Below the pieces are notes generated by a model. It saw only the letters and a program-made list of their open reading frames with translations, was not told where the DNA came from and made no database searches. A program made the position numbers and the translations under genes. Below, piece by piece: positions 2,815 through 62,117 of a DNA stretch of 64,000 bases. Every line of letters begins with the position of its first letter. Position 1 is the first letter of the stretch. Source of the stretch: Trichoplax adhaerens (lineage: Eukaryota > Animalia > Placozoa); NCBI RefSeq assembly GCF_000150275.1, contig NW_002060951.1, positions 2,384,323-2,448,322 on the forward strand. Reading direction: 5' to 3'.

Positions 2815-3060
2815 TACGTACGTACAGTACGTACTGTACAGAGTACAGTATGATGGACTGTATCGCGTTCTATCAAGACCATTTGAAGAAACTCATCCTG
2901 TACTGTACAGTACTGTACTGTACTGTACTGTACTGTACTGTACGTACTGTACAGTGTGGATAATGTACTGTACACTGTACACTGTAAAGTCATACAGTAC
3001 TATACAGTACAGTACAGTACAGTATTGTACTGTACAGTATTGGGAGTAGAACTCTCGCTC
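2815..3060. repeat. (TACTG)n/(CAGTA)n pentanucleotide array cluster
   Basis: e.g. tactgtactgtactgtactgtactgtactg at 2911-2945, with opposite-orientation runs adjacent forming palindromes. Confidence 0.9.
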
Positions 3061-3186
3061 GTTCTATTTTATCGCCTATCGTTGTGTAAAATGTTTATTT
3101 CATTGAATTGAATCTAATTTAACCCTGATTATGTACAAGGGCTGCAAATCAATAGTTCACAACTACTGTATTCAAGAGAGTACTAC

Positions 3187-3410
3187 ATAGGATGATAAGA
3201 GTAGATGTACAGTACTAATGAATTAATGATATAACAGCTATATATTATTATGTAGTGTATGTTTTAGCATCAAATTACAAGCTAATTTTACATAGGACGA
3301 TAAGAGTAGATGTACAGTACAGTACAGTACTAATGATACAACAGCTATATATTATTATGTAGTGTACTGTATGTTTTAGCATCATTACAAGCTAATTTCA
3401 TTGGCCATGG
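3187..3410. repeat. tandem duplication of a ~107-bp unit
   Basis: Unit cataggaYgataagagtagatgtacagtac...taatga...acagctatatattattatgtagtgta..gtatgttttagcatca(aa)ttacaagctaattt is present twice in tandem with a few indels. Confidence 0.8.
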
Positions 3411-24179: not shown

Positions 24180-24530
24180 GGTTTTGTTTTTACTGTATCA
24201 ATTATACAATATACAGTACTGTCTGTGCTAATACGGTACAGTACTTACTATAATTATTACAGTACGATACCGCGGACTAACAACCATTCGAAAGACGTCA
24301 TACTCAGTTGATATACAGTAGGTATTGTACTGAACAGTACACTACTGTACACTGTACAGTATAATAAAAAAAGAAAGAAAAAACTTTTATCTTTTTACCA
24401 GATCAAAGACTACTGTACAGTACAGCATGCTCCTTGCACGATCTCTACAGTACTGTACTGTACATCATAATACAATACAGTAGTACTATACACAGTACAG
24501 TATAGCGCACAGTACTGTACTGTACATTGG
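24180..24530. repeat. (TACTG)n/(CAGTA)n array cluster
   Basis: Repeated tactgtac / gtacagta runs, e.g. 24340-24360, 24410-24520. Confidence 0.9.
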
Positions 24531-24699
24531 GATCCGATTTCTTCAATGCGTTTGAATAGTAAAAACTAAAAACTATAGGTAAAACGCTTAAAAACGATTA
24601 ATCGTTATGAACCTTCCTATACAGATAGATCTCTTATTATATATTAAAATCATACATTTGCGATCATTTTTGTACAAATTGATGCAGAAATTGTAATAT

Positions 24700-24800
24700 C
24701 GAATCCATCGGATCACGTCGTGCATACAGTACAGTATTACGACACAGTGCAATAACCAAATCCATACTGTACTGTACTGTACTGTACACTGTACAGCATT
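24700..24800. repeat. (TACTG)n array
   Basis: catactgtactgtactgtactgtacactgtacag at 24762-24800. Confidence 0.9.
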
Positions 24801-24999
24801 CAGTGTCGTCAATCTTTCTTTTCAGCTTAAACAGTAATTCTCCAGAATTTACTGAAAAATTTTTTAAATTGGACATTTTACTGGACAGTGGCCCGGCAGG
24901 GCATTATCTTTTTCTGATTTATTAACAGATTATTTCTATTATTGAGGAATTTTTACTTCTGTACTAACTCAAATCGTTTAACATTAAACCGGAACCTGA

Positions 25000-25750
25000 T
25001 CCAGTGATGCATTACATACGGTACTGTAGTAATTGTAATAGTGTGTACTATACTGTACACTTGAAATATCTTTTACCGTGCGACTGTACTCTACTGTACC
25101 GTCTGTACGGTAAGAGTATGATTGCAGCTGGTTCGTCTGTGGTTACGAATTTACTGTACGTAATTGCTAGCGAATCTGACATGGAGGAATACGAATTCTT
25201 CCACCCCACTATCTTTAAACCGCAAGGAACAGTTTTTAGCGGAAAAATACAGATAATTATTCACATATCTCTTGATTTTAAGAGTTGGGGGCATATTACT
25301 GACCACACGCCCAGAAATCTATAAATAGCCATACACGCTACAGTATACAGTGTACAGTTCGTCGTACAAAATTTTAAAATACTGTAATCTTCGTACTGTA
25401 CTGTACTGTACTGTACTGTAGTGCTCAATAGAGACCCTACAGTACTGTACAGTACAGTGCTGTACTTTATACTGTACTGTACAGTACTGTACAGTATTCA
25501 CTATTCAGTACCGTTCCGTAGTACTGTACAGTACTGTACTGTACTGTACTGTAAAAGAAATCTCGATACAGCACAGTACTGTACATTAAAGCGTATAGCA
25601 GAGTTCTGACTAGTGAGCATTAGTGTTAGGATTGCTTTCATTTTGTCTGCATGTCTACAGTACTGTACAGTACTGTACATCCCTCTGTAATACTGTACTG
25701 TACTGTATAGTACTATACAGTCTATACTATACAGTGTACAAATGTGTTTT
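25000..25750. repeat. dense (TACTG)n/(CAGTA)n array field
   Basis: Many runs, e.g. 25393-25430 tactgtactgtactgtactgtactgtag and 25520-25552. The ORF-track entries 25004..25324, 25319..25501 and 25501..25773 are repeat-frame artefacts. Confidence 0.9.
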
Positions 25751-28391
25751 GCTGGTGTAACAAATGCAACCAATCAACGATCGATATTTCCAGAGTGGGG
25801 GTGGCAACGTAAAGAATGTGTGAAAAATTTCTTTAATTTTTATAGTAATATAAAAGTTATGTTATTATCGGTTGCAGCTCACATAACTTCGGTTCTGAAA
25901 ACGTTCCAAGATTTGACATAACGGCTAAAAAAGTGCTCCAAACGTTCGTGTGTCCACCTGAATGTACGTACTTATCACTTGTCTCTTCTATTTTCCTAGA
26001 TGAATTCAAAATTTCGTATACGTACTGTAAGTACAGTGTTATTAACCTTAACCTGGTCTTCTAAAACTAGATCCTGCTATCATATCAGAATAACTCTTAC
26101 AGCCTCGATTTGCTAGAACTTGCAGATTGAACCCTTGGTTAGCAAGACCTACGAATACAGTACGCAATTATTGTAAATAACACGTAACTAATGATAATTG
26201 TTAATCGCCATAGTTGCAGCGACTTCACCTTTCAGATCAACTCGATCCCACATTTCTTACCGTAACACCAAAAGTACAGTACAGTATTCGTAATCATGAT
26301 TTACACCAATTTTCAACCATGTTAGGGTAGCTTTTAGTATACTAAAGTAATGCTGTAGCACAACTTTATTAGGATCGTATATAATAGCTATTCTGCCGTT
26401 TTCTACTTCTACTTACCTTAAAATTTTGAAATTATGAAACTTAGATCAATTCTATCCAAAGTTAACAGGATCCACAATGGGTCGAAAACTACTTAAATCT
26501 GGTAGGTTGAAAGTCTCCTAATGACGATGTATCTTATTATAATTATAATTGTAATCAATAATCCGCTGTAACAATTACTAATCATAAGTATCGATCATTG
26601 CGCTAATACTTCTGTAGTTCTATGGCTTATTCAGTTAAATTATTTCGAAGCATCTACGTAGATCTTTCGATGTATAAATCTAGGATATTTTTATTACTTG
26701 TGTTACATTGCAATTTGCACGGTATATGAACTGTTAACAGCACACATCTCAGTATCGCTAAGAACTGTAGCTCGCTCGGGCTTGATGCCTTCGTATCAAA
26801 TCATTATACTGTATCAAAAAGTGGTTAAAAGTTTAAAGTAGTACCATGGTAGTTTGTCTGCGAAGCGACTGGAAGTTAAGCCACCGATCGATTAATTTGT
26901 ATTATAAACGCGTGTTGAAGTGTACAATGTCAATGTACAGACCGCTTAAATCTATTATGTTAGGATAATTTTGTCCGTGTGTGTGTATACTTTTCAGTAC
27001 ATAATAACGCGAGTAGTAACTACTTAAAAGGTCTTCTTTTAAACGAAGACTGTAATGTAGTACGCTTGCATAGTACTAGGAAGTTACAGTCATCTGAAGT
27101 GATCCCAAATTTAAGATGCTAAAGAAATACGAAATTCTTGACGCAGTAACTTTAATGCTGGTAGTTACTAACAGTAGTTAAGTAATTGATTAATATTCTA
27201 CTATATTGCAGTTCTGGATATCTATAAATCAAAACGTAAATAGTGGCTACGCAGATCTTGTATTCTCTAAAAGTGTACCGATGGTTATTGTACTGCAATT
27301 TTGCTTATGTAACTTAGAAATTTTTATAAGTATCTGCAGTAACAATTATAATTGCTCATACTCATTTAGAAAATAAAAAACTGCCTTTAAAAGCCAACGG
27401 AGAAGCCCTTAAAAGGTACAATATTTGTTCGTGACGCATACGGAAGTAGATTTTCAGTAACGAGTATGCATCAGTTCTGCACTTTAGACGTGTTGTATAC
27501 AGCAGCTGATTCCCTACATTCACCACTGTAAAGGTACCGAGATATTTTATACGCATCTCTGCAGATTTACTGTTGACACTAAACTAGCTTTAAATAGTTT
27601 CTTGAATAACGTTGTGCTATCTCTTCAATGGAAATTTTTATTCTACAATATACTGATAGATAGAATAAGATCATTGAGAACATTCTCTGTATTAATTAGT
27701 AATCCACTGCTATATATTGTCAATACCACTCAAGCAAGGCGCGTACGTAAATTCTCCCTTTAGAATAATGGTAAAAAACATTAGATTTCAAGAAATTGTT
27801 ACCTCTATTCGACAGTGCCATAATATCTGCGATTTAGAGTACTGTACCTATCATAACTAACTAACATGATCTTGCAATGCTATATCACTCTGAAAATAAT
27901 TAATCACATCAAGTCAAATATTATTGTATTATTAATTCGGTTATGCGAGTATATGAGCGATCGACGTGGATATTAAATCATACGCTGCATAAATGACAAG
28001 AATCTTCTAATCTGTTTATGCTTCTACTGTACTATTGTGTTCTCACGCTGTCATCGATTTATCTTTCATACTTGCAATATGTACGTGTCTTATCGTTTTA
28101 ATAAATCCTCTCTTTGTCATAGTACTCTTTAATAGATTACAGTACACTAGGTTCTCGTATCTTATGGCAGGTATACTAATAAAATTTACGTAAACAAATA
28201 TAAAAGAATGCTACCGACACGAGCAGGACTAAATAAACTATAAACCTACAGTACTTGAAGAACAGATTTTAAAAGCTTACTGTACTTTCATTAAGCTATG
28301 TAGGAAACCTTTCGCACTTGCAATCTTTAAATCATAACGTACTGCTTCTTTCAAAATGAATTTAAAGACACTGTTATTGTCAATTTTGCAG

Positions 28392-28881: not shown

Positions 28882-29009
28882 GTAAGAAACGAAAGCTACC
28901 TAACTAATTAATAAATATGCTATTTCTGAGATAATACTATTTTGTGTAAGTTTACAATAGAAACATTCGAAAACGTACGTATATTAATCATTACGGTAAA
29001 TTTCTCTAG

Positions 29010-29223
29010 TGTCGACGCAACGAAAGAAACTGATCGACTAGGGCGCCTTGTTAACCACAGCAGGAAGAACTATAATTCTATCAGCAGGCTCATACCTATA
29101 AACGGTAACCCTCACCTTGTATTGATAGCGTATAGGGATATTGGAATAGGTGAAGAATTATTATATGATTATGGTGATCATAGCAAAAAATCTATTGAAG
29201 CTCATCCATGGTTGGAATTATAA
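29010..29223 (+). CDS. KMT5A: KMT5A SET-domain terminal exon
   Basis: Acceptor ttctctag|t. Translation CVDATKETDRLGRLVNHS...HLVLIAYRDIGIGEELLYDYGDHSKKSIEAHPWLEL* aligns to human CVDATRETNRLGRLINHS...LILIASRDIAAGEELLYDYGDRSKASIEAHPWLKH*. Confidence 0.9.
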
Positions 29224-30163: not shown

Positions 30164-30171
30164 TTTATGAC

Positions 30172-30244
30172 TGGTCCGCATGGGGCTCGAACCCACGACC
30201 TTCGCGTTATCAGCACGACGCTCTGCCGACTGAGCTAACGGACC
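30172..30244 (-). tRNA. tRNA-Ile-type, anticodon GAU
   Basis: Reverse complement GGTCCGTTAGCTCAGTCGGCAGAGCGTCGTGCTGATAACGCGAAGGTCGTGGGTTCGAGCCCCATGCGGACCA folds as a cloverleaf: 7-bp acceptor stem, GCTC/GAGC D-stem, anticodon stem TCGTG/CGCGA, loop CTGATAA (U33, G34 A35 U36, A37), T-loop GTTCGAGC. About 80% identical to metazoan tRNA-Ile(AAU). Confidence 0.85.
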
Positions 30245-30409
30245 ACTCCGACAATGTACATTCTACAATACCATTAAAAACAAGATGTAGCGCTCAAACC
30301 TCACAAATTTCACCGGGATCGTAAAGACACGATTCATTCAATGAGTCACAGTATCGTACTGTAACTGTAAAACATTTAGCAACACTTAATATTTTTACGT
30401 ATTACATCA

Positions 30410-32539: not shown

Positions 32540-34795
32540 TAGCTCTGTAGAGTATGCTTTATAACAATTTGGCATTATTAAATCATTTTAACCTATCATA
32601 TTCGTCTCCATAACCTGGCTTGTACATTTATGATTATTGATCCTACATAATATTAAGCAATCTAATTTATTCCTAAACTAAATGTATGTAAAATGCATTT
32701 TGTGGAAAAAAATTACGTAATTTATCGAAAATCCATAGCATTATTGATTAGAAGCTTTTAATTGTGTCCTCACTATTTGTTTCGGGTGTTTATATAATCT
32801 TTTCCATAATAGCTTTAATTCTAAGTGTTGAGAGTTTTATCTTTCTAGATATAATAAGATTATTCACGTATCTATTGCACCCTATTGATGCTAATTACAA
32901 GAAACCCTACATGTTATGGATACTAACTATATCGTTGTATAGAATTTACTGCTATTAGTTAGATAATAAATAATTATGTCAATGCATAAACAACTGTTAC
33001 ATATCAATTACTATCGAAATTTAGAGATTTTCATAAAATAAACTTTTAATATCAAGACTTTGGCAGTTTTAAAGTCGATGGCAAACTTCTCGCATGGGAA
33101 TCTACTTATATTAAAGCAATTTTTTGCTGATGATTCCTTTCAGCTTTGATTCTATAGCCGTCATATACACAAACCTTCTCTTTTTGGTTATTTTACAAAG
33201 TAACCAATTACTTTGTAAAAGCCCTATATTTCTTAAAGTAACCGTGACATACATAAAGGATATGGACATTCCAGTAGTAGATCAGTTTTTTTTTCAGTTT
33301 TATAGAATATTACGGTATCATTGTTACTCCCGTACTTATGATCACGGACTCCTATTTTGGATAATATTTCCTAATATTGTATACTTTCCGCAATTACACT
33401 GAGTCTGAGAAAGAAGGCTATAAAATAAGATATGCTATCTGATTCACTGTAAAGCACAGTATGCAAATTCGCCTGACTATTATACATGAAATATTCGGTT
33501 CTTCACTAAGTATAATAAAACTAAGAATCATTTCTTTGTAGGTATTTACTATAGAATAACTACTCATGTTAAAAATGCATCATACAGTATACAGTATTCA
33601 TAGTGTGTATTATGTATAATATATATACTATAATCAGTCGATCTAATATCTACCATTAACAGCAATTACTGAAACCCTTCTTAAGTCGTAAATACGTATT
33701 CGTATATATGATCGAAAATTTATCGGTATCGTCTCTGGTATCGGCTAAATGTTCTCCATGCATAAAACTTATTATTCTGTTACAATCAATAGGTGTCTAA
33801 CAGTAAACAAATTAATTAATTAAATATTATTCAGTGCGAATAGCTGACTATGAAACAGCGACCTTCTAAATACATGCCATCATACGAAATTAAAATTAGA
33901 TACGCAGAGATCAATTATATCCATTCTTATTTTTAAGCCCCATCATACCAGTAAAGAATTAGATATGATTTACTGAATAAAAAATGCCTTAGCACTGCAA
34001 TTTGACCAAAATATAACACGAAATATTAGTGAATGCATGATCTTTTAAGTAAGCGTACTACAAATACCCTTTAGTTTAAATTTTAGTCCCTAAATGGTCC
34101 CATACTATCTACTAGACATACCTTTAGTAATCCATGACATTACTGTAAGTAAATTCACTCTCTCCAGTACCGTACAGATGTAATTCGACAACGACGCTTT
34201 TGTCTTAGTTTTCGTCTTAGACTACAATTTTACTCGTTATTATTTGATTGCGAATCATACTCTAGGCTCCGTGATTATGCAATATCATTGTAAAAATTAA
34301 TTTATTAACGAAATCACATTTACTGATGGACACAACCTTACTATCAACAGTTCCAGTAAACCTTTGCAGCTTAAAATTTAAGAGTTCTAATTTAAATTTT
34401 TACAGTATACTGTACTGCACAAAGACCAAGATCTGGTGTGTTCTTGAAAGTGAGATCAAATTAATGTTAATGACGAAACCTGATATTATCATTACGAATA
34501 ATTGCATGATTGTTCGGCATTGAATAAGCTCAACTTCAAATAGCCAAGTATTTCTCAAATAAGCTGTTATGAAGCACGGTATTTCATAAGCCATTATCGC
34601 TACTTCCATAAAGTCCTTAAGAAACATTAAATTAAATTAATAGTATCAATATCGCACCTATAAGAAACCAAGTGCAAGTAAAAAGTAATTTCAGCCATTA
34701 AATCTACTCTTTCTCAAGCATTTTTAATCCGTGATCTTAATTTCAACAAATCAGGTTTGCGTTTTAGAGCATTAACTTAATGGCTCAATAGTCTA

Positions 34796-40633: not shown

Positions 40634-40923
40634 CTAAAATAATTATATAACTTAAATATAAGAAAAAACAAATACTATTTTACCCGCATTCTAGATTAAT
40701 CTGGTACAGCACTGCATTTCCTTTGAATTGTAGCCAATACAATATCGACATTTAGCCAACTTAGCCGTAGATCGTGATAATATATCGCACTGTTAGCTGG
40801 TATTGAGTGTTTATTGATGAAATAATTACGATTATTACTCTACTAAATATATAATTAATAAATAGTAAGGTATTCATACTGTTATGACTGCGATAGGAGA
40901 TGGAATAGGTTTATGAGTTTTAC

Positions 40924-41410
40924 CTTTCTCACTAAAATCTCCAGTTACGAAAGCTCTTGTGCCATCACGACCGGAAAAAAAATTATATCCACCACCTTTA
41001 CCGTAATGTTCCTTTCCTTTGGTTACATCAAATACTTGGCCCAAAACAGCTAAATAGATTGGCTTCTGTGGATCATCACCGTTATATTGTTTTAGATCAG
41101 AAGCTGTAAATATCTGACCATCGGGCGCAATGACATTGCTGAGATCTGTACTAGATCCAGAACCAGTTCCGACAGCCGGTCGTTTAGATTCATCCTTATA
41201 TTTATTTTGATAGCTTTCGGCTGTATTCGCTAGTAAATCAACATCTTGTTTATAAGCGAATACACCTGCAGCAATCGCTGCTGCTAAGATAAAGATAGGA
41301 ACTAATTTTGATCCTTTGGAATTACTTTCTTGGTTAGTTTCTTCTGGTTTCTCTATCTTATCAGTTTTGGAGTCATCTGATTTGGCTGCTTTTCGTCTAG
41401 TTACAGCCAT
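40924..41410 (-). CDS. CYB5D2: CYB5D2 exon 1 (signal/TM region plus cytochrome b5-like haem-binding core)
   Basis: ATG at 41410. Translation ...FTASDLKQYNGDDPQKPIYLAVLGQVFDVTKGKEHYGKGGGYNFFSGRDGTRAFVTGDFSEK aligns to human [62 protein letters not shown]. Donor aaag|gtaaaa. Confidence 0.9.
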
Positions 41411-41569: not shown

Positions 41570-41720
41570 AAGTACAGTACAGTACTGTACTGTACTGTAC
41601 AGTTACGATACTGTACTGTACTGTACTGTAGGTTTACTGTACTGTACACTGTACTGTACAGTGCTGCTTTACAGTACGCCCATAGGCCACAGTCCAATGG
41701 TACAGTTTATGGACTACAGT
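41570..41720. repeat. (TACTG)n/(CAGTA)n arrays between CYB5D2 and HNF1 start sites
   Basis: agtacagtacagtactgtactgtactgtacagttacgatactgtactgtactgtactgtaggtttactgtactgtacactgtactgtacagtg. ORF-track entries 41316..41804, 41488..41697 and 41634..41924 are artefacts. Confidence 0.9.
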
Positions 41721-43599: not shown

Positions 43600-43680
43600 C
43601 GATACACCCTACAGTGTACACTGTACAGTACAGTACTGTAAACATCGCGACTTGCTCTACTGTACAGTACTGTATTTCTG
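43600..43680. repeat. (TACTG)n/(CAGTA)n array inside HNF1 intron 1
   Basis: cagtgtacactgtacagtacagtactgtaaac...tactgtacagtactgta. Confidence 0.85.
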
Positions 43681-46114
43681 AGATATTTGAACAAGAAAAA
43701 TCAATGATTCTTTCTTTTTATCCTGCTTAAATTATACATCAATCGGTAGAGAAAGAGCTAAACAACCGTAGTTCATCAATTAAAATTTGCGTGCGACGTC
43801 GATTGTACATCACAGAGCATACTGTCATTAGAGAACACATACAGTACAGTACAGTACGGTAACACAGCTAAACTTGACCGTGCTAGAGAATGAAAATACT
43901 ACACATTTAATAATTATATATAAGTATATACGCCTATAATAATTATTCCATAACGAACAATTAATTAATGGTTATAAAGCTGCTTAAATAGCCGATCTTA
44001 AAACTAGTTACCTTAAATGTTGTTCTCGTTCATATCCAGAATATATTAGCTTATTTTAATGTTGACAAAATAATAGTTCGATACGAAAGGCTATTACAAA
44101 GCGGCTGGGATGTAACCATAATTAGCCAGTTAATTTACACAGATATACGTGTAGATGGAGGTCTGTGTTGACTGCCGAGACATGGATGCGACCAGGAATT
44201 CAGGAGACCAGGATTACTTAAAATACGCGTAGACCCTAATCATGCTGTTTGGAGTAATGCAATACTGTACAATTCCTTATTACGAAATCTACCGTTATGG
44301 TTCTTAAGCGGAGCTTATGACTAAGATTGCCATCTTTGAGTTTTATATAATTACTGTTATTTATTATTTAATTATATTATATAACTATTGATACCTAATA
44401 TCATCATTCGTAATTTATTAAATGTAAATACAATAATTTTCTTGGTTCATTATACTCATTTCGATCATGCGATAAACGTTATTAAAATATTATAATATAT
44501 ACAACGTTATGATGTCGATTATATGGCGATATTATACAATGTGACGATTAATATTCTGTACACGAGCGCATCTACATAAATACTGAAGGAATAGAATTTT
44601 ATTAACATGAATGACTTCGACATTGTCTTTCATAAATAAAGTTCTGTAGTTATATATCAAATGAAGGTTTGCATGCGTTGAACTGTTTAAGACCCGATTA
44701 ATCTATTTAATGTACAGTATTTGCGGTTTATAGGGTGTTCGCAGTGTTGTAATTGTTTTATATCCATATTAAGCATGCTTTAATTTAAAATTGCGGTACT
44801 GGTGATACTGTATTTACTCTTTACTCTATGATATTGTAGAGTTCGCGTACAATGCAGACAGCACAGACGGCTTGATTGCTAACGTGTGGATCTCGAATAA
44901 AGCAGAAATGCTTGATATCTTCTCTTATATAAAAGCCCAATCGCTTTATAATTTTCATTACTGGATGTATTTAGCGTTAATCCATCTCTTACCTTTTATA
45001 TTACAGTTAGATTCAACGTATCCGACTAATAATGATGCCATAGATCTTATAACTGATGCGAACGTGACTGATATTGTAAAAGTTCTAAAGGATAGAGGAC
45101 CTCTGGCAGCTGTTGAACGTTTACTAAGGTAAAGCGATATAATATTTTTATGCTCCAAGCTGATAATGAAACACCTTTTTCCGGTATAGGCACGGCAGAA
45201 CGTACAGTAATTCGACTTATGTAATCGTGAGATAATTTGTAAGCTCTCTAATTTAAATGCGCGTTCTATTATGTACAATAATACTATTGTAATCACCCCG
45301 ACCGTTTCGATTGTAATTATCGCTCTGTCCCTAACCATTGCACCACTTCAATATTTTGCACAGTGTTGTTCTAGTCAGCTCTCAAGTTTTTATTCGGTAT
45401 CGAAAATTATACGGTACAGTTATGCGGTATTCCGAACGCTTGTTGATGAAGTTGTATTGCTTCAATTATCAGTTATAACGAAGAGCATACTTAATAACAG
45501 CTATTGTCTTATTAGATATGCCAGAAACTACATTTCTAGTTAAATCTTACTTTTTTAGGGAATCTACATTTTTAAAATCATTGTACATATTAAATTGGAA
45601 CAAATATCTTTCTGTTATGACATTTAAATAATGGAGAGTTATTAAATACGAAAGTGCACAACTATAACCAAAATTAACCTGTATTATATAGCTGCTTTCT
45701 ATCTTCTGATAGCTAGTAAGGCATTACATAGAGATAAATCCTTAAAAGTTTTGATTCTTCATATCAACGAAATTTAACCATTCATATCAGTATTTATTGC
45801 ACTCAGCTAAAAATTTAGTTGAAACTCAGGTTACTGTGTATCAGTTATCCTGTAATGATCTAAATTTTATGCTATCTGCCCACTGCCTAATTTCGATTGT
45901 AAGTAAATATGATAACGGTATTATTTGAGTGTGCTTTGGTGTTGTTGTTTATTAGTTATACTGTACTTACTTCTGTGATAGTATTAGCATGTCATTTTCA
46001 ATAATCTGCTCTACATTAGCTGTTAAGGCTAAAAGCCAATTTTTATACTGACTTAAAATATATCATACTTCAGCAGGGATTGACAAAAATACAATGTTTA
46101 ATTACAATTTACAG

Positions 46115-46314
46115 TAGTGACCCATACAAAGTTGCCAAAATGATCAAGACTTTTATGCAGCAGCATAGCGTATCTCAGCGTGAAGTCGTTGAATCTACAT
46201 CGCTGAATCAAAGTCATTTATCACAACATCTAAACAGAGGTACAGCAATGAAAACACGTAAAAGATCTGCGCTTTACTTGTGGTATGTGAAGAGAATTAT
46301 GTTACTACAAAGAC
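46115..46314 (+). CDS. HNF1: HNF1 POU-specific domain exon
   Basis: Translation [61 protein letters not shown] aligns to human [60 protein letters not shown]. Donor agac|gtaagt. Confidence 0.9.
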
Positions 46315-46440
46315 GTAAGTTACTATTACACTTTACTTTTTGATATTCTCTCATTTTGGCTTCTATTTCTATTCATATAGTTTAGTTTTGTATATATCTG
46401 TATGGTAATGAATTGTCTATCTTTATAAAATCGTTAATAG

Positions 46441-46776
46441 ACGAAAGCGATATAGAAGATGATACTACAGTAAACTTAACTATAGATGATCTACCGAGTA
46501 GCCCTCCTTCCCCCAAGCGACAACGCCGTAGTCGATTTAAATGGGGTTCAGCTAGCAAACGTATTTTATATGATTCCTATGCTAACAATACAAATCCTTC
46601 AAAGGAGGAACGTGATATGTTAGTTGATGCTTGCAATCATGCTGAGTGTGTTCAACGCGGCTTGCTGCCAAATCATGAGAGTGCTTTAGGTTCTAGCTTG
46701 GTTACTGAAGTTCGGGTATACAATTGGTTTGCCAACCGCCGCAAGGAGGATACTTTCAAGATAAAATATCGTAATA
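46441..46776 (+). CDS. HNF1: HNF1 atypical (extended) homeodomain exon
   Basis: Acceptor taatag|ac. Translation ...[78 protein letters not shown] aligns to human [78 protein letters not shown]. Donor aata|gtaagt. Confidence 0.9.
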
Positions 46777-46888
46777 GTAAGTATGAAGAATATAATAATA
46801 ATTCTCCAAACCATACTTTCAAATAGAAATACTAGCGAACATGATTTATTTGACGTTACTAAATATTTTACTTTGTGTGATTAATTAG

Positions 46889-47484
46889 ACCCAACTAGTC
46901 TTAACCCTTCGATGGAATCGACTCATCTAGATAACAACACTACCGACGGTTCTACGCTTTTAGAGTGTAACGGAGGTAGTGCATTTACCCAGCAATTACA
47001 GGGGTTGACTGGTTCTCCTACTGGTACTTCTTGCGCGCTTTCAATGAGTCGTATTCCTCCAAGGGGTAGAAATTTAGTCAGTATGAGCATACCAGAACAA
47101 AATCTTGCAACTTCCGATTTTATGCAAGTTTCTCAGAATAACACGAAAAGGAACGATACTGATATACAGCCTAACAGCTCAAATATGCAGCAAGTAATGC
47201 TGCCTGGAATATCACATTTTAGATTAAATATAAGGAAGAACGACTTATCAATTAATCAAACTGAAGGATCTGAAGCTATTATTACTGCTTCTAATCTTGC
47301 CACCGCAATTAATAATCGCCAATTGAATACATTATCGAGTATTAAATCACAAGTTAACAACGAACAGTTACGGCAAGGATGTTTACCTGAAGAAAGTCAG
47401 CCTTTGTTCGAAACTAGTAACAACCCTAGTTTACCAGTGTTATCTCAGTCTCAAATGCCACATTTAAATAGTATTTCTCATTGA
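46889..47484 (+). CDS. HNF1: HNF1 terminal exon (S/T/Q/N-rich putative transactivation tail)
   Basis: Acceptor aattag|ac, in phase with the homeodomain exon. Low-complexity translation ending ...LNSISH*. Confidence 0.7.
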
Positions 47485-50075
47485 ATAGTCCAGCTACCGT
47501 ATTGACTTAATTATAACATAACGGTCACGTGCATCATAATTTTTATTTAAATTAACTTTGTCAAGATAGTTTACTTAAAGGAAACAAATCTGGCAAAATT
47601 TCTGCATATCTGTATGATGCATCATTTTTTTTAAGTTTAATTTACTATTTGTGAATGATTTAAGCAGAAACTGATCAAACCGAATTTTAATACTTTAATG
47701 CTGGTGTTATTGTACTGTTAGATATAATATTATTAAATTTTTGAAAGAAAATTTGTTATACTTGTATCATGACCACAGAAATTTTATGCAAACTATTCAT
47801 CAGAGAAATATAGATTTTACTATCATAAATATGGAAATACAACGTTAAAAATCTGATTAGTAATTAATACTATTTGTCAGATTATATTCTGCCTCTATGT
47901 CAATGTTGTACACTGTTATAAATCAAATATGTTGCCTGTTTTTAAGAAGGAAACAATAGAGATAAATTTTGCTTAAGTTCACCTTCAAATATTTTCTATT
48001 GCAACTCTAAAAATTTAGTCAAGAAATTCTTTCTTTTTACTATGTTCTCTATCACAGTGTTATCTGTCTGATTAAAATCTTTGAGCTGTTACAGTTTTTT
48101 TTAATTAGGCGCATTACCAGGAGATTCTGATGTATGATTTGATTCTTGCGATGAAATTTGACAATTGCCCCTAAAGCTTAATTTTTATCTTACATATTGA
48201 AGCAATGGTCAGTAAGATGATACGTTTAACTGATTAATTCAACAATTGGTTTGTAGACATAATAGCATTTTTGATGAACTAAAGGATGGCTCTGTTGTGG
48301 CATCCATTGGCAATATTGAATCCTGTCACAATTGTATATGTATTACAATCTTTCTATAATTTATAGTATCAATTTCGAACTTTATTAAGTCATATTCAGT
48401 AATAATAATAATTGATCCGAAAAGTACTTTGAAATTATTTATGCTTTGATCAGTAGCGCATATTTACAAAATAATTTTTAATATTTTATTATCAATATTT
48501 GAATTGTATAATATAAGAAAACATAGATCATATGCGAAGACATTGATCCACCTGGGTCCGCAGTTATCCCTTCCTGTATACCTTCCGGTATTTTATACTC
48601 TACGCTATCGGTTATAAATTACCGACCTTGACGTTGCATTGGCCATAAGCAGAAAGATTATACTGTAGTTATGAGTATAAAAATATATAGTGCTACGTTT
48701 ATGGCATCCTGTATTCAACTGCGACGCAATTAGGGTACTGCCCATCGCATTCGTTGTGATTGATGCATAATAATATGTGGTTATGTTTGAATTAAGATTT
48801 CTATCGTCTTTTACCGTCGTATAAAACAATATTGTCGATACGATTTGTTCTCTATACTTTTAATTTCAGCAAAGAAAACAAGCTTGATTTAGTCCATGTT
48901 ATTTATTACAACCGACCTATTTGTAATTTCTACTAAGTTACAAATGTAGCTTCTTATTTAATTATTCTATGCAATGATTAGCACTGAGCTATTAGTAAAG
49001 CATAAATGAGTAAGTTGTACTGTATTACATTGGTATTAAACTGTCAAAAAATGTATAGTTATGTTTTTTTATTGTACAGAACTGTTTTATGAAGTATTAA
49101 AAAGTATATTCAAGAAATTTCCATTAAAAATAATTTACCCTATCGTGAATTGCAGATGATAATACGCTAATTAAATGTCGATAAGTACAGTACTTAGTAC
49201 TATTTATGAGTGGTTTAGTTATTGTACGTAACTGTTGTAGTATAAATCATCCGGAAGCCTATGGAGGCCCTACATCTATAATAAAAAAATAATTTTAAGA
49301 CTCATACTGTGGCAGCATTCATTACGGGGTATAGCACGACATAAAATTCAAGTACGACGAGCAAATACATAAATGATTATGAATACAGTACATAGAGTAC
49401 GTTCACGCTGTATTTTATAGTTCATCTGCGGGACAGCTATCAGATTGGGATATGAAATTTAGATTCGAAAATTTACATTAATTTATAGCCTAAACTGTGT
49501 CTTTGTATTATACCGTTTATAATTTAATCTTAGAATATCGAGCTTTAAATCGAGTCACACGGAACTAAAAATTATAAAGAAGTCAAACGTAAGTTTAGTG
49601 CTTAGCATCACCGTATGATCGCTATCGTTTTAAAAATGTATAACACAGATTACAGTATAAGAGATACGTTACAACATTCATCAGCAATCGAGATTTAAAC
49701 ATCTATTGCGATAATACTTTAATGGAGAGGTATGCTTTAAGCAATATAACTTACTTTATTTCAATGATTTACTAAATAGTTCAAAGAACATTAATTTTAC
49801 AGTCCGTTCACATAGATCTCATTTAAATATTTTAATTTAGTGTGAATAATATTACTGTTCGAATATTGATTATCACATAGCTAAATAATGCCTTGTAGAC
49901 AGCTCTAGCACTATCTCATCCACCCTGATTTATCTATTAAATTTACATTATTAAATATTAAAATGAAGTGCATGTATGAGTAGTTTTCTGGAACAACCTT
50001 TAAATACGTAACGTAACCTGCAATTACATAAGCATCCGAGACGAATCAGTTAAAATCCTTAACTGTCTCGTCTTT

Positions 50076-53765: not shown

Positions 53766-54619
53766 CTAATGACCAAAACAAATAAGAAAAACGTTGACTT
53801 AATTAAATATTCTTATGCACGTACAATACTGTACTGTATAGTATACATTACATATATACTTATACAGCATGTCAATTTTGTAAAATTAATTGATTACAAT
53901 ACAAATTCTGCATGGTGCAGACTGCTGAGTGACTTTAGCACCAAGTCTGCACGCCATTACGTCATTCCTTGAAAATACAAGCATACGTACAGTATAATAT
54001 TTTCACATTTTTACAATACTGTACAGTACAGTACAGTACGGCTCAGTTCAGCACCAAAAAATGGCAGCAAACACTGCCTAAAATTTTTATGTAGAGAAGC
54101 AGAAATTGCGGCTTACAGTAGGTTTATCATGTAATATAATGATAGACTTCTTTCTGAACTTAAGTAATATAATAATGTTAGTTCATCTTTCTTACAATTT
54201 AAAAATTATATCATAAGGACTGATTGTACTGTACTAGTGTATAGAATTATTAACTAGAAATTAAATTGGACTACACTAATCGTACAGTCAAAATTTAGAC
54301 ATGTTTTTACTTTGCAAATTTACATAGAAATGAACTCGGATGAAAATCATACTGTAATAAAATCAGTTTAGCAGTATAAAAAATGCTAGATCCAAGGAAG
54401 GAGGATCCTTAATAAAAGTTTATGGTTGTGCTACAGCTGTGTATATTAGTAGCAAATAGAACAGTCAGTAGCTGTGAACGTATCATTTATCAGCTAACGA
54501 TAAAGATAAATGTAGTACTGTCCAGTACTGTAAAGCGTACTGTCCCGTACTACTCGTACGTCTACTAAGGGTATTTGAATATTGTGTACTATATTTACTG
54601 TACTGTATTAACTACTAAC

Positions 54620-54721
54620 CTCTCCTTTGCATAACATTTCTTGTAATTCAGCTACACGATTATTCCAAATGAGCCAATGTAATGGGAATTCCTTACTGGC
54701 CTTTTCACAGTTTTGAGCCAT
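54620..54721 (-). CDS. ANKRD13: ANKRD13-family exon 1 (start codon)
   Basis: ATG at 54721. Translation MAQNCEKASKEFPLHWLIWNNRVAELQEMLCKGE aligns to human [33 protein letters not shown]. Donor gag|gttagt. Confidence 0.8.
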
Positions 54722-55039
54722 CAGTGATGACGCCGGTGGGTCAGATTCTGGAGATGTACACACACTAATACGCTATTACTATATACTATAAATAATAATA
54801 AACACTCTAATATTTGGGCTCGTATCTTTACAGGATAGTACTGATTTACAATAAACGATCATAATCTTAATTATCAGTTAATAATGTCATTCTACAGATA
54901 CATAATGATATCCATGCTGTCTGCTATAGCGTAACTGGATGATATTTGGAGTGTTTAAGGAGAAATCTCTAACATCAGAGCAAGGGATGAACTTGAAAAA
55001 AATTTGTGAATGTCAAACTGCGGAATACTTTGTGAATGG

Positions 55040-55560
55040 TCAAACTGCGGAATACTGTACAGTGTACAGTACAATACTAACTACAGTACATACTGTACAC
55101 TGTACAGTACAGTACTGAAAAAAGCATTCGCTATTATCGTCATCGACGGTAGCCACGATACGACAGTCTCACTCGTTGCAGTTTGTATGAGTCACAGTAT
55201 GCCTTTTGCCTACCCGTTACGGTACTCTTGTTCGGCGTGCAGATTACTACGGTGGCCCATTACTGTACAGATTGCTGTACAGTACAGTGTACAGTACAAC
55301 AAGTACAATACTGTACTGTAAGCTGTACAGTACAGTACAATAAGTACAATACAATGTACTGTACAATGTACAGTGTACAGTACAGCACTCGATATGGCTA
55401 CCTGATCCTTGCTTGGATCATCATAGCGTAAAAAACCTACAGTACTGTACTGTACTGTACTGTACTGTACTGTACTGTACTGTACACCTGAAATTTCCAT
55501 TAGCGTGATTAATTATTGTACTGTACAGTGTACACTGTAGAAGAGCACCGGTGGTAAAGT
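55040..55560. repeat. (TACTG)n/(CAGTA)n array field filling the ANKRD13-POLR1C divergent intergenic region
   Basis: Includes (tactg)x8 at 55441-55485 and many palindromic junctions such as tgtacagtacagtgtacagtaca. ORF-track entries 55010..55321, 55183..55431 and 55210..55500 are artefacts. Confidence 0.9.
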
Positions 55561-58542: not shown

Positions 58543-58659
58543 GTATAAAGACTGCCTACATAGATAAACCTCGTCTCGATACTTGCAGTAGGCAGGTATT
58601 ACGTGATCCGGAATTAAAAGAACATGTAATATTGAATAAAATTCGTGATCATTTCATAT
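58543..58659 (+). CDS. POLR1C: POLR1C exon 11
   Basis: Translation GIKTAYIDKPRLDTCSRQVLRDPELKEHVILNKIRDHFI aligns to human [39 protein letters not shown]. Confidence 0.9.
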
Positions 58660-58744
58660 GTAAGCTACAATGACATTCGAATTGATAAATTGAACGATGT
58701 TAAATTGCGCGCTTTGCTAATTTTCATGATTTATTATTTCTTAG

Positions 58745-58872
58745 TTTGTATTGAATCTACGGGCTCCATCCCTCCTGCTGATATCTTTCGTGAATCTGTG
58801 AAAATCTTAAGGCAAAAATGCCATAAATTTTTAGAAGAAGTAAACCGTAATGCTATCTCGGATGACACCTAA
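58745..58872 (+). CDS. POLR1C: POLR1C terminal exon
   Basis: Translation FCIESTGSIPPADIFRESVKILRQKCHKFLEEVNRNAISDDT* aligns to human [39 protein letters not shown]. Confidence 0.9.
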
Positions 58873-59439: not shown

Positions 59440-59520
59440 CCTATTCTACTGTACTGTACAGTACTGTACATCAAATGTACAGAATGTACAGAACACATTG
59501 TACGGTACAGTAGGGATAGT
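59440..59520. repeat. (TACTG)n/(CAGTA)n arrays
   Basis: tactgtactgtacagtactgtacatcaaatgtacagaatgtacag... Confidence 0.85.
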
Positions 59521-60067
59521 ATGGACTGTCATTGCTGTCATGGCTTGCCAGAAAATGATTTTTGAAGTTTTTAATAGTCCGTGATACTATCTACTTTACG
59601 TACAGTAAACCAGTGAAACTTAACTGGTCTATTGTACAGTATTTGTACTATATAGCCAGCAGAGTATGACATCAAAGATGAAGATACAGTACACTACAGT
59701 ACAGTATGTGTAAACTTGATATTAATGATATGAAAACTAGTACTGTAGCATTTATTTTCGAGAAGATATCCTGATTTACTTTGTAGCGATCAAAATGATT
59801 GCTAAATAGTCAGATATCCATATTAAGTTAAGATAATATAGTATTCATTTATCATTAGTGATTGATATTACATGGACTTTGCAAGTTGATCAACTAAAAC
59901 AAGCCAGGGACCTCTAGCCATTTACGCATACTGATAATTTAAAATTTTTTTACTTGAGAGGTCACTGTACTGTACACATAGTGACAGCGCTGTACAGTAC
60001 TGTATGAAGCCTGGCCTGGAGTACCGTACTATCAGTAGAACACTAACTAGTTTTAAGTTTTACTAGT

Positions 60068-60600
60068 ACAAACTCCCGTCGCTATGCTGACGGATTACTT
60101 TGTTATAATATTACAAACTCCCGTCGCTTTGCTGACGGATTATGTTCTTATAATATTATACTTCTAGAATATTATTTTACAATAATACTTCAAAAGTGGC
60201 TCGGCCTTGCATCGCTATGCTGGCGGATTACGTTGTTATAATATTACAAACTCCCGTCGCTTTGCTGACGGATTATGTTCTTATAATATTATACTTCTAG
60301 AATATTATTTTACAATAATACTTCAAAAGTGACTCGGCCTTGCATCGCTATGCTGGCGGATTACGTTGTTATAATATTACAAACTCCCGTCGCTTTGCTG
60401 ACGGATTATGTTCTTATAATATTATACTTCTAGAATATTATTTTACAATAATACTTCAAAAGTGACTCGGCCTTGCATCGCTATGCTGGCGGATTACGTT
60501 GTTATAATATTACAAACTTCCGTCGCTTTGCTAACGGATTATGTTCTTATAATATTATACTGTACTTCTAGAATATTATTTTAAAATAATACTTCAGGCG
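60068..60600. repeat. 133-bp tandem satellite, about 4 copies, with internal ~45-bp sub-repeat
   Basis: acaaactcccgtcgctttgctgacggattatgttcttataatatt recurs at 60068, 60113, 60246, 60379 and 60512 (period 133). Each sub-unit contains the inverted repeat ccgtc-gctNtgct-gacgg (hairpin-capable) and ends in ttataatatt. Confidence 0.9.
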
Positions 60601-60629
60601 TGACTCGGTCTTGTCCTCATTTACTATAC

Positions 60630-60890
60630 AGTACAGTACGTAGCTAACATGTGATACAGTATCACTTACCGGCGTTTTTTTATCATTTGTACAGTACAGT
60701 ACTGTACTGTAGATACTGTAGATAAAAAAAAATGTTATGCTCTTGATTTTTAATAAAGTGGCAGTTAGCGCGCACGCGTAGGGCGGAAAATTTAAAAATA
60801 TGCTGTGGTCACTCAACATGCACAGTACAGTAATTTCAATTTGAAATTTAATTTCTGTTACAGTGTACAGTACAGTACAGCATGTTACAT
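60630..60890. repeat. (TACTG)n/(CAGTA)n arrays flanking the satellite
   Basis: tacagtacagtacgtag...tgtacagtacagtactgtactgtagatactgtag...gtgtacagtacagtacagcatg. Confidence 0.85.
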
Positions 60891-61818
60891 TTATGATGAC
60901 AGACTAGTCTCTGTCGTTAAGTAGCTGGTGACGACTGTCGAAGCCATAGCGAATCTGGAATCGTGAAGAACGACCGTTAATAGTTTACGCTACATTTTCT
61001 ATCATTCACAGTAAAATTGACGGTCTGAAAAGCGATCTAAAAGGTAAGTTAAATGTCAAACTCTATCATGTATGATCCTCCAACCTATAAACATGAGTAA
61101 TAGCTGATTTTTAAGCTTAATCCTTAAATTTAAAAAATTTTGAATGCAATACATACAGTATAGTAGACAGTAATATGGATTTACAGTAAATATCAGTCGT
61201 CAGTTGAAAACAGCAACCTACGCAAGCAAGCAAAATAGGCTGTAATTAGGCTAGCTTTCTCGTCTACATTACTGACAACATTAGAACTGGACAAACTAAA
61301 TAATTTACTTATTGCTCTATCGTATCCTCTCCCACTATACATACACTACATTAGACGTGTACAGTACTGTACAGTATATCTATCCTCTTCTGTGTAACGT
61401 TATTTAGATGCATATACTGTACGTATATGGTGTTGAAAATTAATAATTCTCGAATTAATTCCTAACACTCATATACTCAAATACGGTACAGTACTTTTAG
61501 TAAAACTGCACAAAGAATATAAGTGAATGTACTTATTAGGTCTCAGCGCACCGATATCTTAATCATTAACAACATGGTGTTTAGTTTAGTGTTAGTGAAA
61601 CTTCTGTCTAGAGTTTTCCAGGGGTAGCATGCATGTTAAAAAAAATTGAATCGTAACCTTAGGATTCATTTAATAATTTTTTAAAAGGGAACTTTGCAAT
61701 CGTCTATTATAGGTATAATTCATCGTACGAATTTTAGCTGGAGGTGACAGACCAAACTAAAAAATCAATCCTTATTGATTGTTGATATTATAGCCGAGGG
61801 ATAAAAAGCTGTCTAGAG

Positions 61819-61982
61819 ATGAGTTCAAGTGCTTCGCCGAAGGAAAATAGTGAAAATAACGAGTGGGAGGTTTGTAAGGAGAACATTCAGCCCTTAAAGC
61901 AAGGGAGAATCATGTCCAATCTCCAAGCTGCCTTATCAACGGAATCATCTACAGAACGAAAGAAGTTGCTTGATGAAAAAGA
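61819..61982 (+). CDS. BUB1B: BUB1/BUBR1 (Mad3-type) checkpoint kinase exon 1, with KEN box
   Basis: ATG at 61819. Translation [40 protein letters not shown]... aligns to human BUBR1 ...[30 protein letters not shown]. Donor ga|gtgagt. Confidence 0.85.
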
Positions 61983-62117
61983 GTGAGTCTTTTCTTACAT
62001 AAGCTTCATAAAAATCTTCTAATCTTTAAAATGATCTAGTAAGGTTTTCGCTCATTATTACGTTAGACAGGGTAATTGGCCTAATCATGGTATTATTAAT
62101 ATTCAAACAAAATATAG

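What the first reader, a model, noticed from the sequence alone, without database searches (positions are those of the whole stretch)
60068..60600. 133-bp x 4 satellite with nested hairpin-forming 45-bp sub-repeat
Period-133 tandem copies sit at 60068, 60113, 60246, 60379 and 60512. The first unit is a partial 45-bp copy, and copies diverge by only a few substitutions. Each unit contains two 45-bp sub-units of the form acaaactcCCGTCgctttgctGACGGattaYgttNttataatatt. The CCGTC...GACGG inverted repeat can form a stem-loop. The array sits in the POLR1C-BUB1B intergenic region, flanked on both sides by (TACTG)n arrays.
Basis: seen in the sequence. Interest (0 to 1): 0.5.

Follow-up and report, generated by a model that had tools for sequence, protein, structure and literature searches.

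The report
Ordinary 133-bp minisatellite upstream of BUB1
This is a real but ordinary four-copy, 133-bp tandem repeat in the DNA between two genes of what is almost certainly a placozoan (Trichoplax) genome, a genome already known to hold thousands of such short arrays; nothing indicates that it is a gene, a mobile element or a true satellite.

Summary
Tandem Repeats Finder reports period 133, 4.0 copies, 96% matches at 60079-60613.

Corrections:
- Each period has one full 45-mer, an unrelated 54-bp spacer, and a 34-bp 5'-truncated copy that lacks one stem arm. So there is one hairpin per period, not two.
- The hairpin is small: a 5+2-bp stem, DNA -5.8 kcal/mol for the whole 45-mer, z about -3.4. 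It is weakened without compensation in the last copy.
- The two inner periods are identical, and the edge periods differ by 3 and by 9 substitutions plus a 5-bp insertion. This fits stepwise slippage or unequal exchange.

No other copy exists in the 64-kb window. There are no terminal inverted repeats, no Rfam match, and no relatives in the searchable collections, which hold essentially no eukaryotic genomes.

The flanking genes are confirmed as RPAC1/POLR1C and a BUB1-family gene.

The (ACAGT)n microsatellites that fill the window are the published signature of Trichoplax adhaerens. Its genome is reported to contain 9,208 low-copy minisatellites and very few transposons.

Verdict: a young, local, probably neutral promoter-upstream minisatellite. 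Whether it is dispersed genome-wide could not be tested. Low interest.

The parts
60068..60112 (.). Leading 45-mer (u0), ACAAACTCCCGTCGCTATGCTGACGGATTACTTTGTTATAATATT. Its last 34 nt are the first segment of period 1.
   Evidence: 41/45 identical to the A-type 45-mer
60079..60211 (.). Period 1 (TRF phase): 34-bp tail of u0, full 45-mer A (60113-60157), and 54-bp spacer S (60158-60211).
   Evidence: 3 mismatches to periods 2 and 3
60212..60344 (.). Period 2: truncated 34-mer B (60212-60245), 45-mer A (60246-60290), spacer S (60291-60344).
   Evidence: identical to period 3
60345..60477 (.). Period 3: B (60345-60378), A (60379-60423), S (60424-60477).
   Evidence: identical to period 2
60478..60613 (.). 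Period 4: B (60478-60511, identical to the other B copies), then a diverged A (60512-60556) and a diverged S with a 5-bp insertion. The array ends at ...GGTCTTG.
   Evidence: 9 mismatches plus 5 gap columns against periods 2 and 3
60121..60138 (.). Small hairpin core CCGTCGCTTTGCTGACGG. Further copies lie at 60076-60093, 60254-60271 and 60387-60404. The copy at 60520-60537 is weakened (GACGG to AACGG).
60160..60197 (.). AT-rich imperfect palindrome inside spacer S (ACTTCTAGAATATTATT-TTAC-AATAATACTTCAAAAGT). Repeated at 60293-60330, 60426-60463 and 60564-60601.
   Evidence: (I3-I5). Its fold is not better than shuffles as RNA (z -0.6).
60558..60566 (.). TACTGTACT, made by a 5-bp insertion in the last unit. 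This is a newly born ACTGT (ACAGT-type) repeat unit.
59967..60004 (.). Left flanking imperfect ACAGT-type microsatellite (GTACTGTACA, 3.8 copies).
60619..60724 (.). Right flanking ACAGT-type tracts (perfect runs at 60627-60639 and 60689-60702; TRF rows at 60688-60724).
58645..58872 (+). ORF containing the last coding exon of the upstream gene, RPAC1/POLR1C. The stop codon is at 58870-58872.
   Evidence: RNA_pol_L; human RPAC1, 7a6h_C, E 3e-10
61819..61986 (+). First coding exon of the downstream BUB1/BUBR1-family gene (KEN box, then Mad3_BUB1_I domain in later exons). A putative non-coding first exon ends at the donor site AAAAG|GTAAGT at 61045 (inferred).
   Evidence: PF08311, E 3.6e-18

Best explanation
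This is a young, locus-specific minisatellite in the non-coding DNA between POLR1C and a BUB1-family gene of a placozoan genome, most probably Trichoplax.

Proposed history (inferred from the copy differences):
1. An older 45-bp tandem duplication produced u0 and A, which now differ at 4 of 45 positions.
2. A 133-bp segment, made of the last 34 nt of u0, then A, then the 54-bp neighbour S, was duplicated head-to-tail. The mechanism was probably replication slippage or unequal sister-chromatid exchange.
3. This happened in several steps. The right-hand A+S copy is about 9% diverged, period 1 about 2%, and the two inner periods are identical.

The array encodes nothing. The small CCGTC...GACGG hairpin and the AT-rich palindrome are carried along by duplication rather than maintained by selection. 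At most they help polymerase stalling and slippage. Any effect on the BUB1 promoter about 170-300 bp downstream would be incidental, through spacing or AT-rich and TATA-like sequence.

Shown: the anatomy, the copy relationships, uniqueness within the window, and the absence of TE or RNA hallmarks. Inferred: the mutational mechanism and neutrality.
For: - Tandem structure and identity gradient: P2 equals P3, P1 has 3 mismatches, P4 has 9 mismatches plus a 5-bp indel.
- The array edges are sharp, and the flanks have no homology to the unit.
- No other copy of the 45-mer, the spacer or the whole unit occurs in the other 63 kb (blastn; nhmmer, all E>1).
- No terminal inverted repeats beyond chance.
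- No Rfam family in the array, even at E<=10.
- The hairpin is absent from the three truncated copies and is weakened without compensation in the last copy.
- Only short 40-41-aa ORFs lie within the repeats, and one 83-aa ORF reaches in from the right flank; none of them was searched against any protein or family database.
- Organism context: 25 of the 30 perfect period-5 runs longer than 12 bp are ACAGT-type. That is the published signature of Trichoplax adhaerens. The same paper reports 9,208 TRF minisatellites (2.4% of the genome) with fewer than 4 copies for 94% of repeat types, a TE content of 0.13%, and a single MITE family of about 20 copies (PMC2871265). An array like this is therefore the expected kind of repeat, at roughly one per 11 kb.
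Against: - Genome-wide copy number of the 133-mer and 45-mer could not be measured, because no placozoan genome is reachable with these tools. 'Local' is shown only for this 64-kb window.
- A 7-nt direct repeat, TTTACTA, lies just outside both array ends (p about 0.007 against random placements). It could be a target-site duplication of an old insertion. However, both flanks are degenerate ACAGT microsatellite, so that null is too generous.
- The array sits in a promoter-upstream zone rich in ACAGT and ACGG motifs. The literature links these motifs to insulation and loop anchors in Trichoplax. A regulatory role is therefore not excluded.
- The species assignment rests on a compositional signature, not on a sequence match.
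Confidence: 0.75

Rival explanations
1. The array is derived from a transposable element. The ancestral ~150-bp segment (u0+A+S) would be a non-autonomous DNA transposon (MITE, MULE or Helitron fragment) that inserted into an ACAGT tract, and its interior then amplified in tandem, as happens with MITE- and Helitron-associated satellites in other invertebrates. The 45-mer would then be dispersed in the genome.
For: - A 7-nt direct repeat TTTACTA (extended: TTTACTA(G)TAC / TTTACTATAC) lies just outside both ends. Only 0.7% of random placements do as well.
- The GC-containing hairpin followed by AT-rich sequence is loosely reminiscent of subterminal TE structures.
- Kim et al. 2025 report Mutator-type elements enriched in placozoan promoters.
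Against: - No terminal inverted repeats: 33-99% of random segments score as well or better.
- No second copy in 64 kb.
- No Helitron CTRR end placed correctly after the hairpin (read).
- TEs make up 0.13% of the T. adhaerens genome, and MITEs are reported as one family of about 20 copies.
- The flanking direct repeat lies in degenerate ACAGT microsatellite on both sides, so it is expected more often than the null suggests.
Confidence: 0.12
2. The array is a functional cis-element. It would be a recently amplified cluster of binding sites upstream of the BUB1 promoter, for example the CCGT/ACGG palindrome or GGATTA. It would act as an enhancer module or as an insulator or loop-anchor site for the still unknown placozoan architectural factor.
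For: - The array ends about 170 bp upstream of an E2F-like GC-rich box (60768-60790) and about 300 bp upstream of the putative BUB1 first exon.
- It carries 10 ACGG/CCGT tetramers and 8 GGATTA sites (read).
- The Chimaera preprint names repeating ACGG and ACAGT as insulation-associated motifs in Trichoplax.
- Kim et al. find a motif at loop anchors in about a third of promoters.
- TACGGTAC is 8-fold enriched in the window, and three copies surround the array.
Against: - All sites are copies of one another through very recent duplication, so they give no independent evidence of selection.
- The actual loop-anchor motif is shown only as a figure and could not be compared.
- A 4-mer match is weak.
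- The stem is lost in the truncated copies and decays in the last copy without compensation.
- No chromatin or conservation data are available here.
Confidence: 0.08
3. The units are tandem genes for a small structured RNA (an snoRNA, SL-RNA or other ncRNA array).
For: Each unit folds somewhat better than shuffles (133 nt as DNA: z -3.05 on the + strand, -2.69 on the - strand). Tandem organisation is typical of some small RNA genes.
Against: - No Rfam family matches at gathering score, and the only hits at E<=10 are two noise matches (mir-4703 at 15.8 bits against 88 needed; STnc470 at 10.8 against 80).
- No C/D or H/ACA boxes and no Pol III A/B boxes were seen by eye.
- Fold significance comes from one 5+2-bp stem. 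The spacer and the truncated copy fold no better than shuffles.
Confidence: 0.02
4. The copy number, and the identity of periods 2 and 3, are partly an assembly artefact from collapse or expansion of a repeat. The true array would be longer or shorter.
For: Two perfectly identical 133-bp periods are the kind of structure short-read assemblers can mis-count.
Against: A 546-bp array is within the reach of Sanger or long reads. The edge copies carry private substitutions, which anchors the array. Nothing in the sequence (no N runs, no abrupt break) suggests a join.
Confidence: 0.03

Closest known systems
Low-copy minisatellites of the Trichoplax adhaerens genome (Wang et al. 2010, PMC2871265)
   Same: Detected by TRF, unit within their 7-1204 bp range, about 4 copies, non-coding, in a compact AT-rich genome with very few transposons. 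The same genome-wide class of 9,208 arrays.
   Different: The unit is longer than the abundant 7-25-bp classes, and it has an internal older 45-bp duplication. This particular locus is not described individually in that paper's main text; its additional files were not opened.
(ACAGT)n promoter-associated microsatellite of Trichoplax
   Same: It surrounds the array on both sides, and a new ACTGT unit has even arisen inside the last repeat unit. Both lie in the gene-upstream zone where 54% of ACAGT loci are reported.
   Different: The 133-bp unit has no sequence relationship to the pentamer. It is a separate repeat embedded in the ACAGT-rich zone.
Promoter-proximal VNTRs/minisatellites of other eukaryotes (for example the human INS VNTR; from general knowledge)
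   Same: A head-to-tail array a few hundred bp upstream of a gene, formed by slippage or unequal exchange, with homogenised inner copies and diverged edge copies.
   Different: No evidence here of polymorphism or of any effect on expression. The copy number is very small.
MITE- or Helitron-derived tandem arrays and satellite DNAs (for example in bivalves; from general knowledge)
   Same: Short units containing small hairpins, and a possible flanking direct repeat.
   Different: No TIRs, no Helitron termini, and no dispersed copies in the window. The host genome is extremely TE-poor.
Mutator-TIR motif at placozoan chromatin-loop anchors (Kim et al. 2025, PMC12221973) and the ACGG insulation motif (Chimaera preprint)
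   Same: Promoter-upstream position. ACGG/CCGT tetramers are present in each 45-mer, and TACGGTAC copies lie nearby.
   Different: The published motif could not be retrieved as letters. The only similarity is a tetramer, and the array has no TIR structure.

Membership tests
Minisatellite (tandem repeat, unit 7-2000 bp, as used by Wang et al. 2010) | Head-to-tail copies detected by Tandem Repeats Finder | tested here: met
   period 133, 4.0 copies, 96% matches, score 955
Minisatellite (tandem repeat, unit 7-2000 bp, as used by Wang et al. 2010) | Unit length in the minisatellite range and a short array (hundreds of bp) | tested here: met
   unit 133 bp, array 546 bp
Minisatellite (tandem repeat, unit 7-2000 bp, as used by Wang et al. 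2010) | Locus-specific, not a dispersed family | tested here: inconclusive
   No second copy in the 64-kb window.
Satellite DNA (centromeric or heterochromatic) | Long arrays (kb to Mb) of many monomers | tested here: not met
   Four copies and 546 bp, with sharp unique flanks and genes 1.2 kb away on each side
Satellite DNA (centromeric or heterochromatic) | The same monomer present at several chromosomal sites | not testable with these tools
   No placozoan assembly is available. Scans of the metagenome, prokaryote and viral collections gave only chance matches of 23 bp or less.
MITE / non-autonomous DNA transposon (including MULE) | Terminal inverted repeats | tested here: not met
   the terminal inverted-repeat score is matched or exceeded by 33-99% of random segments
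MITE / non-autonomous DNA transposon (including MULE) | Target-site duplication flanking the element | tested here: inconclusive
   TTTACTA lies on both sides (0.7% of random placements), but both flanks are ACAGT-type low complexity
MITE / non-autonomous DNA transposon (including MULE) | Multiple dispersed copies | tested here: inconclusive
   None in the window. The genome was not searchable.
Known structured RNA families (Rfam 15) | Covariance-model match at or near the gathering score | tested here: not met
   nothing in the array. The best noise hits score 10.8-15.8 bits against thresholds of 80-88.
Conserved functional hairpin | Stem kept in all copies, with compensatory changes where it varies | tested here: not met
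   the stem is missing from the 3 truncated copies. In the last copy a G-to-A change breaks a pair without compensation, and z falls from -3.4 to -1.2.
Placozoan loop-anchor / Mutator-TIR motif (Kim et al. 2025) | Match to the published motif matrix, and overlap with a loop anchor or ATAC peak | not testable with these tools
   The motif is given only as a figure, and the TIR data are not among the held supplementary files

The most novel reading that the evidence does not exclude
The CCGTC...GACGG-containing 45-mer is a binding module, or a Mutator-TIR-derived sequence, for the still unidentified architectural protein that builds promoter hubs in placozoans. The array would then be a very recent tandem amplification of such sites at the promoter of a cell-cycle gene. 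It would be a natural example of loop-anchor or insulator strength evolving by minisatellite expansion.
Probability: 0.06. Interest if true: 0.55.

Novelty: new member of a known kind. Interest (0 to 1): 0.12.

Why it matters
As it stands it matters little. It is one more low-copy minisatellite in a genome where such arrays make up 2.4% of the DNA.

It has three modest uses:
- It could serve as a VNTR marker for distinguishing Trichoplax clones or haplotypes.
- It is a clean small example of stepwise array growth, with an old 45-bp duplication, then 133-bp duplications, identical inner copies and decayed edges.
- It shows an ACAGT-type unit being born by a 5-bp duplication.

It would become interesting only if chromatin data showed that the array is an accessible or looping element of the BUB1 promoter.

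Tried and rejected
- **Collection scans.** I scanned metagenome contigs, genome contigs and viral contigs with TCGCTWTGCTGRCGGATTA. There were 65, 17 and 78 single hits. Re-alignment showed that none extends beyond 21-23 bp, and the 17 genome hits match my own estimate of about 17 chance matches. These are chance hits or an unrelated bacterial gene, so I rejected them.
- **Protein searches to identify the species or fetch orthologous loci.**
  - The BUB1 N-terminus gave no hits.
  - The HNF1 homeodomain gave only one 57-aa metagenome fragment at 89% identity. Its 1.3-kb contigs are about 70% identical in DNA, which is too distant and too short to compare intergenic DNA.
  - Exact look-ups of two window ORFs found nothing on record.
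- **Rfam.** Searches at gathering score and at E<=10 found nothing in the array.
- **MITE idea.** A hand-seen 9/14 terminal complementarity disappeared in an empirical test.
- **Decayed older copies in the flanks.** Similarities seen by eye were not supported by nhmmer.
- **Possible solitary 45-mer at 33326-33368.** It is 74% identical over 43 bp, but nhmmer gives E=3.6, so it is chance.
- **Spacer S as a diverged third 45-mer.** About 10 of 43 positions match, which is chance level (by eye).
- **Letters of the Kim et al. loop-anchor motif.** They are not in the text or in the held supplements.
- **Bacterial promoter/terminator scan.** Not run, because the window is eukaryotic.

Full report
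**1. The observation**

The sequence at 60068-60613 is a genuine tandem repeat. Tandem Repeats Finder reports period 133, 4.0 copies, 96% matches and score 955 at 60079-60613. This is the strongest tandem array in the whole 64-kb window. Base self-match inside the array is 0.89 at lag 133 and 0.84 at lag 266, against 0.40-0.47 at the next-best lags.

The core CCGTCGCTTTGCTGACGGATTA occurs five times with at most one mismatch, at 60076, 60121, 60254, 60387 and 60520. It occurs in none of 100 shuffles. The array ends at 60613 rather than 60600.

**2. Anatomy**

The alignment of the units and direct comparison give this layout:
- A leading 45-mer, u0 (60068-60112).
- Three units of A + S + B, followed by a final A + S.
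  - A is a full 45-mer, ACAAACTCCCGTCGCTTTGCTGACGGATTATGTTCTTATAATATT.
  - S is a 54-bp spacer unrelated to the 45-mer.
  - B is a 34-bp 5'-truncated copy of u0, TCGCTATGCTGGCGGATTACGTTGTTATAATATT.

In TRF phase the four periods are 60079-60211, 60212-60344, 60345-60477 and 60478-60613.

The second sub-unit lacks the 11-nt head that contains the CCGTC arm, and it reads GGCGG instead of GACGG. Only one hairpin-capable sub-unit exists per period. TRF's period-45 row has only 55% matches.

**3. History read from the copies**

Periods 2 and 3 are identical. Period 1 differs from them by 3 substitutions. Period 4 differs by 9 substitutions plus a 5-bp insertion, all within its A+S part. u0 and A differ at 4 of 45 positions.

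This is the usual minisatellite pattern, with an old small duplication, stepwise duplication of a larger unit, freshly duplicated or homogenised inner copies, and decaying edges. The flanks show no homology to the unit (nhmmer finds nothing even at E<=100), so the array has sharp borders.

**4. The hairpin**

As DNA the free energy is -5.8 kcal/mol with z -3.5. As RNA it is -9.8 kcal/mol with z -3.4.

This is a small structure. Cruciform extrusion in duplex DNA normally needs longer perfect arms (general knowledge). The stem does not exist in the three truncated copies. In the last copy a G-to-A change removes a pair without compensation, and z falls to -1.2. The spacer contains a 38-bp AT-rich imperfect palindrome, but its fold is no better than shuffles. 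Nothing indicates that any of these structures is maintained by selection.

**5. What it is not**

- No Rfam family matches the array at gathering score or at E<=10.
- Only repeated 40-41-aa ORFs lie within it, and one 83-aa ORF reaches in from the right flank; none was checked against a protein database.
- No other copy of the 45-mer, the spacer or the unit occurs in the remaining 63 kb by pattern search, blastn or nhmmer, all with E>1.
- It has no terminal inverted repeats. Its terminal complementarity is matched or exceeded by 33-99% of random window segments.
- The only TE-like hint is a 7-nt direct repeat, TTTACTA, just outside both ends. Only 0.7% of random placements do as well. Both flanks are degenerate ACAGT-type microsatellite, which makes such a match much likelier than that null implies.

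**6. Context and organism**

The upstream gene ends at 58872. It is RPAC1/POLR1C, supported by Pfam RNA_pol_L and by human RPAC1 (7a6h_C, E 3e-10). The downstream gene starts coding at 61819 with a KEN-box N-terminus and a Mad3_BUB1_I domain (E 3.6e-18). Whether the gene is BUB1, BUBR1 or an unduplicated ancestor was not tested.

A likely non-coding first exon ends at the donor site AAAAG|GTAAGT at 61045. A GC-rich E2F-like box lies at 60768-60790. If both readings are right, the array ends about 170-300 bp upstream of the BUB1 core promoter. This is inferred.

The window is eukaryotic, about 32% GC, compact, and saturated with ACAGT/ACTGT pentamer repeats. Of 30 perfect period-5 runs longer than 12 bp, 25 are of this type. 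A literature search on this motif led to Wang et al. 2010 (PMC2871265), which reports for Trichoplax adhaerens:
- ACAGT is the dominant microsatellite, described there as a first for a eukaryote.
- 54% of ACAGT loci lie within 1 kb upstream of genes.
- There are 9,208 TRF minisatellites, making up 2.4% of the genome, with fewer than 4 copies for 94% of repeat types.
- TE content is 0.13%, with one MITE family of about 20 copies.

The window is therefore almost certainly placozoan. This rests on a signature, not on a sequence match. The array is the kind of repeat expected about once per 11 kb in that genome.

**7. Possible link to placozoan 3D genome work**

Kim et al. 2025 (PMC12221973) report that about a third of placozoan promoters form loop-mediated hubs, whose anchors carry a motif also found in Mutator TIRs. 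The Chimaera preprint names repeating ACGG and ACAGT as insulation-associated motifs in Trichoplax.

The array sits in just such an ACAGT-rich upstream zone. TACGGTAC is 8-fold enriched in the window, and three copies lie around the array. Each full 45-mer carries CCGT and ACGG.

That is only a tetramer resemblance among copies that are not independent. The published motif is not available as text. I treat this as the most novel reading not excluded (probability about 0.06), not as a finding.

**8. Limits**

No placozoan genome is reachable with these tools.
- The DNA scans of the metagenome, prokaryote and viral collections returned only chance matches of 23 bp or less.
- The protein index lacks this species.
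- The only relative found, L161/L162, is about 70% identical in coding DNA and sits on 1.3-kb contigs.

**9. Verdict**

This is a real, correctly located, but ordinary young minisatellite. It was most likely generated by slippage or unequal exchange and is most likely neutral (confidence 0.75). The rivals are a TE-derived array (0.12), a functional binding-site cluster (0.08), a copy-number artefact (0.03) and an RNA gene array (0.02). Novelty: a new member of a known kind. Interest: 0.12.

Noticed in passing
window 2910-3330, 24450-26286, 41571-41647, 43623-43857, 54021-55485, 59447-60880: Twenty-five perfect ACAGT/ACTGT pentamer runs longer than 12 bp (of 30 period-5 runs) cluster in a few zones, which appear to be mostly 5' intergenic regions (a rough gene map read by eye from the ORF list, not verified). 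One example lies between a divergent cytochrome-b5/neudesin-like gene (40874-41410, minus strand) and the start of HNF1 (about 41829, plus strand). This matches the published Trichoplax signature (PMC2871265) and is how the organism was inferred.
   Followed up: partly
window 59501, 60021 (-), 61482, and 7 other sites: TACGGTAC, an 'ACGG' variant of the pentamer repeat, occurs 10 times against 1.25 expected. Three copies surround the array. It may relate to the ACGG insulation motif or Mutator-TIR motif reported for Trichoplax. EDTA-style structural 'Mutator' calls might even be seeded by inverted ACAGT/ACGGT tracts (my speculation).
   Followed up: partly
window 60558-60566: The last repeat unit carries a 5-bp insertion that turns ATACTTCTAG into ATACTGTACTTCTAG. 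This is a new ACTGT unit created by a local 5-bp duplication, an apparent snapshot of ACAGT-microsatellite birth.
   Followed up: no
window 60058-60064 and 60620-60626: A 7-nt direct repeat, TTTACTA, lies just outside both ends of the array (0.7% of random placements do as well). It could be a target-site duplication or simply the microsatellite context. Unexplained.
   Followed up: partly
window 60768-60790: GCGCGCACGCGT followed by GGGCGGAAAA is an E2F-like, cell-cycle-type promoter box about 170 bp downstream of the array and upstream of the putative BUB1 non-coding first exon (donor at 61045). This is a plausible BUB1 core promoter, judged by eye only.
   Followed up: no
window 30171-30245 (-): A single tRNA-Ile (anticodon GAT) gene (Rfam 62 bits; ARAGORN) lies close to an ORF with SET-domain-like sequence (28942-29223, judged by eye, not searched).
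   Followed up: no
window 55003-55056: A 27-bp x 2 direct repeat (96% matches, TTTGTGAATGGTCAAACTGCGGAATAC) lies next to a large ACAGT cluster upstream of POLR1C. It is another small minisatellite.
   Followed up: no
L161 and L162 (ENA metagenome contigs) vs window 46230-47486: Two 1.3-kb contigs from unrelated metagenome assemblies carry HNF1 exons about 70% identical in DNA (89% in the homeodomain protein) to the window. A related placozoan-like animal therefore appears to be present in those samples.
   Followed up: partly
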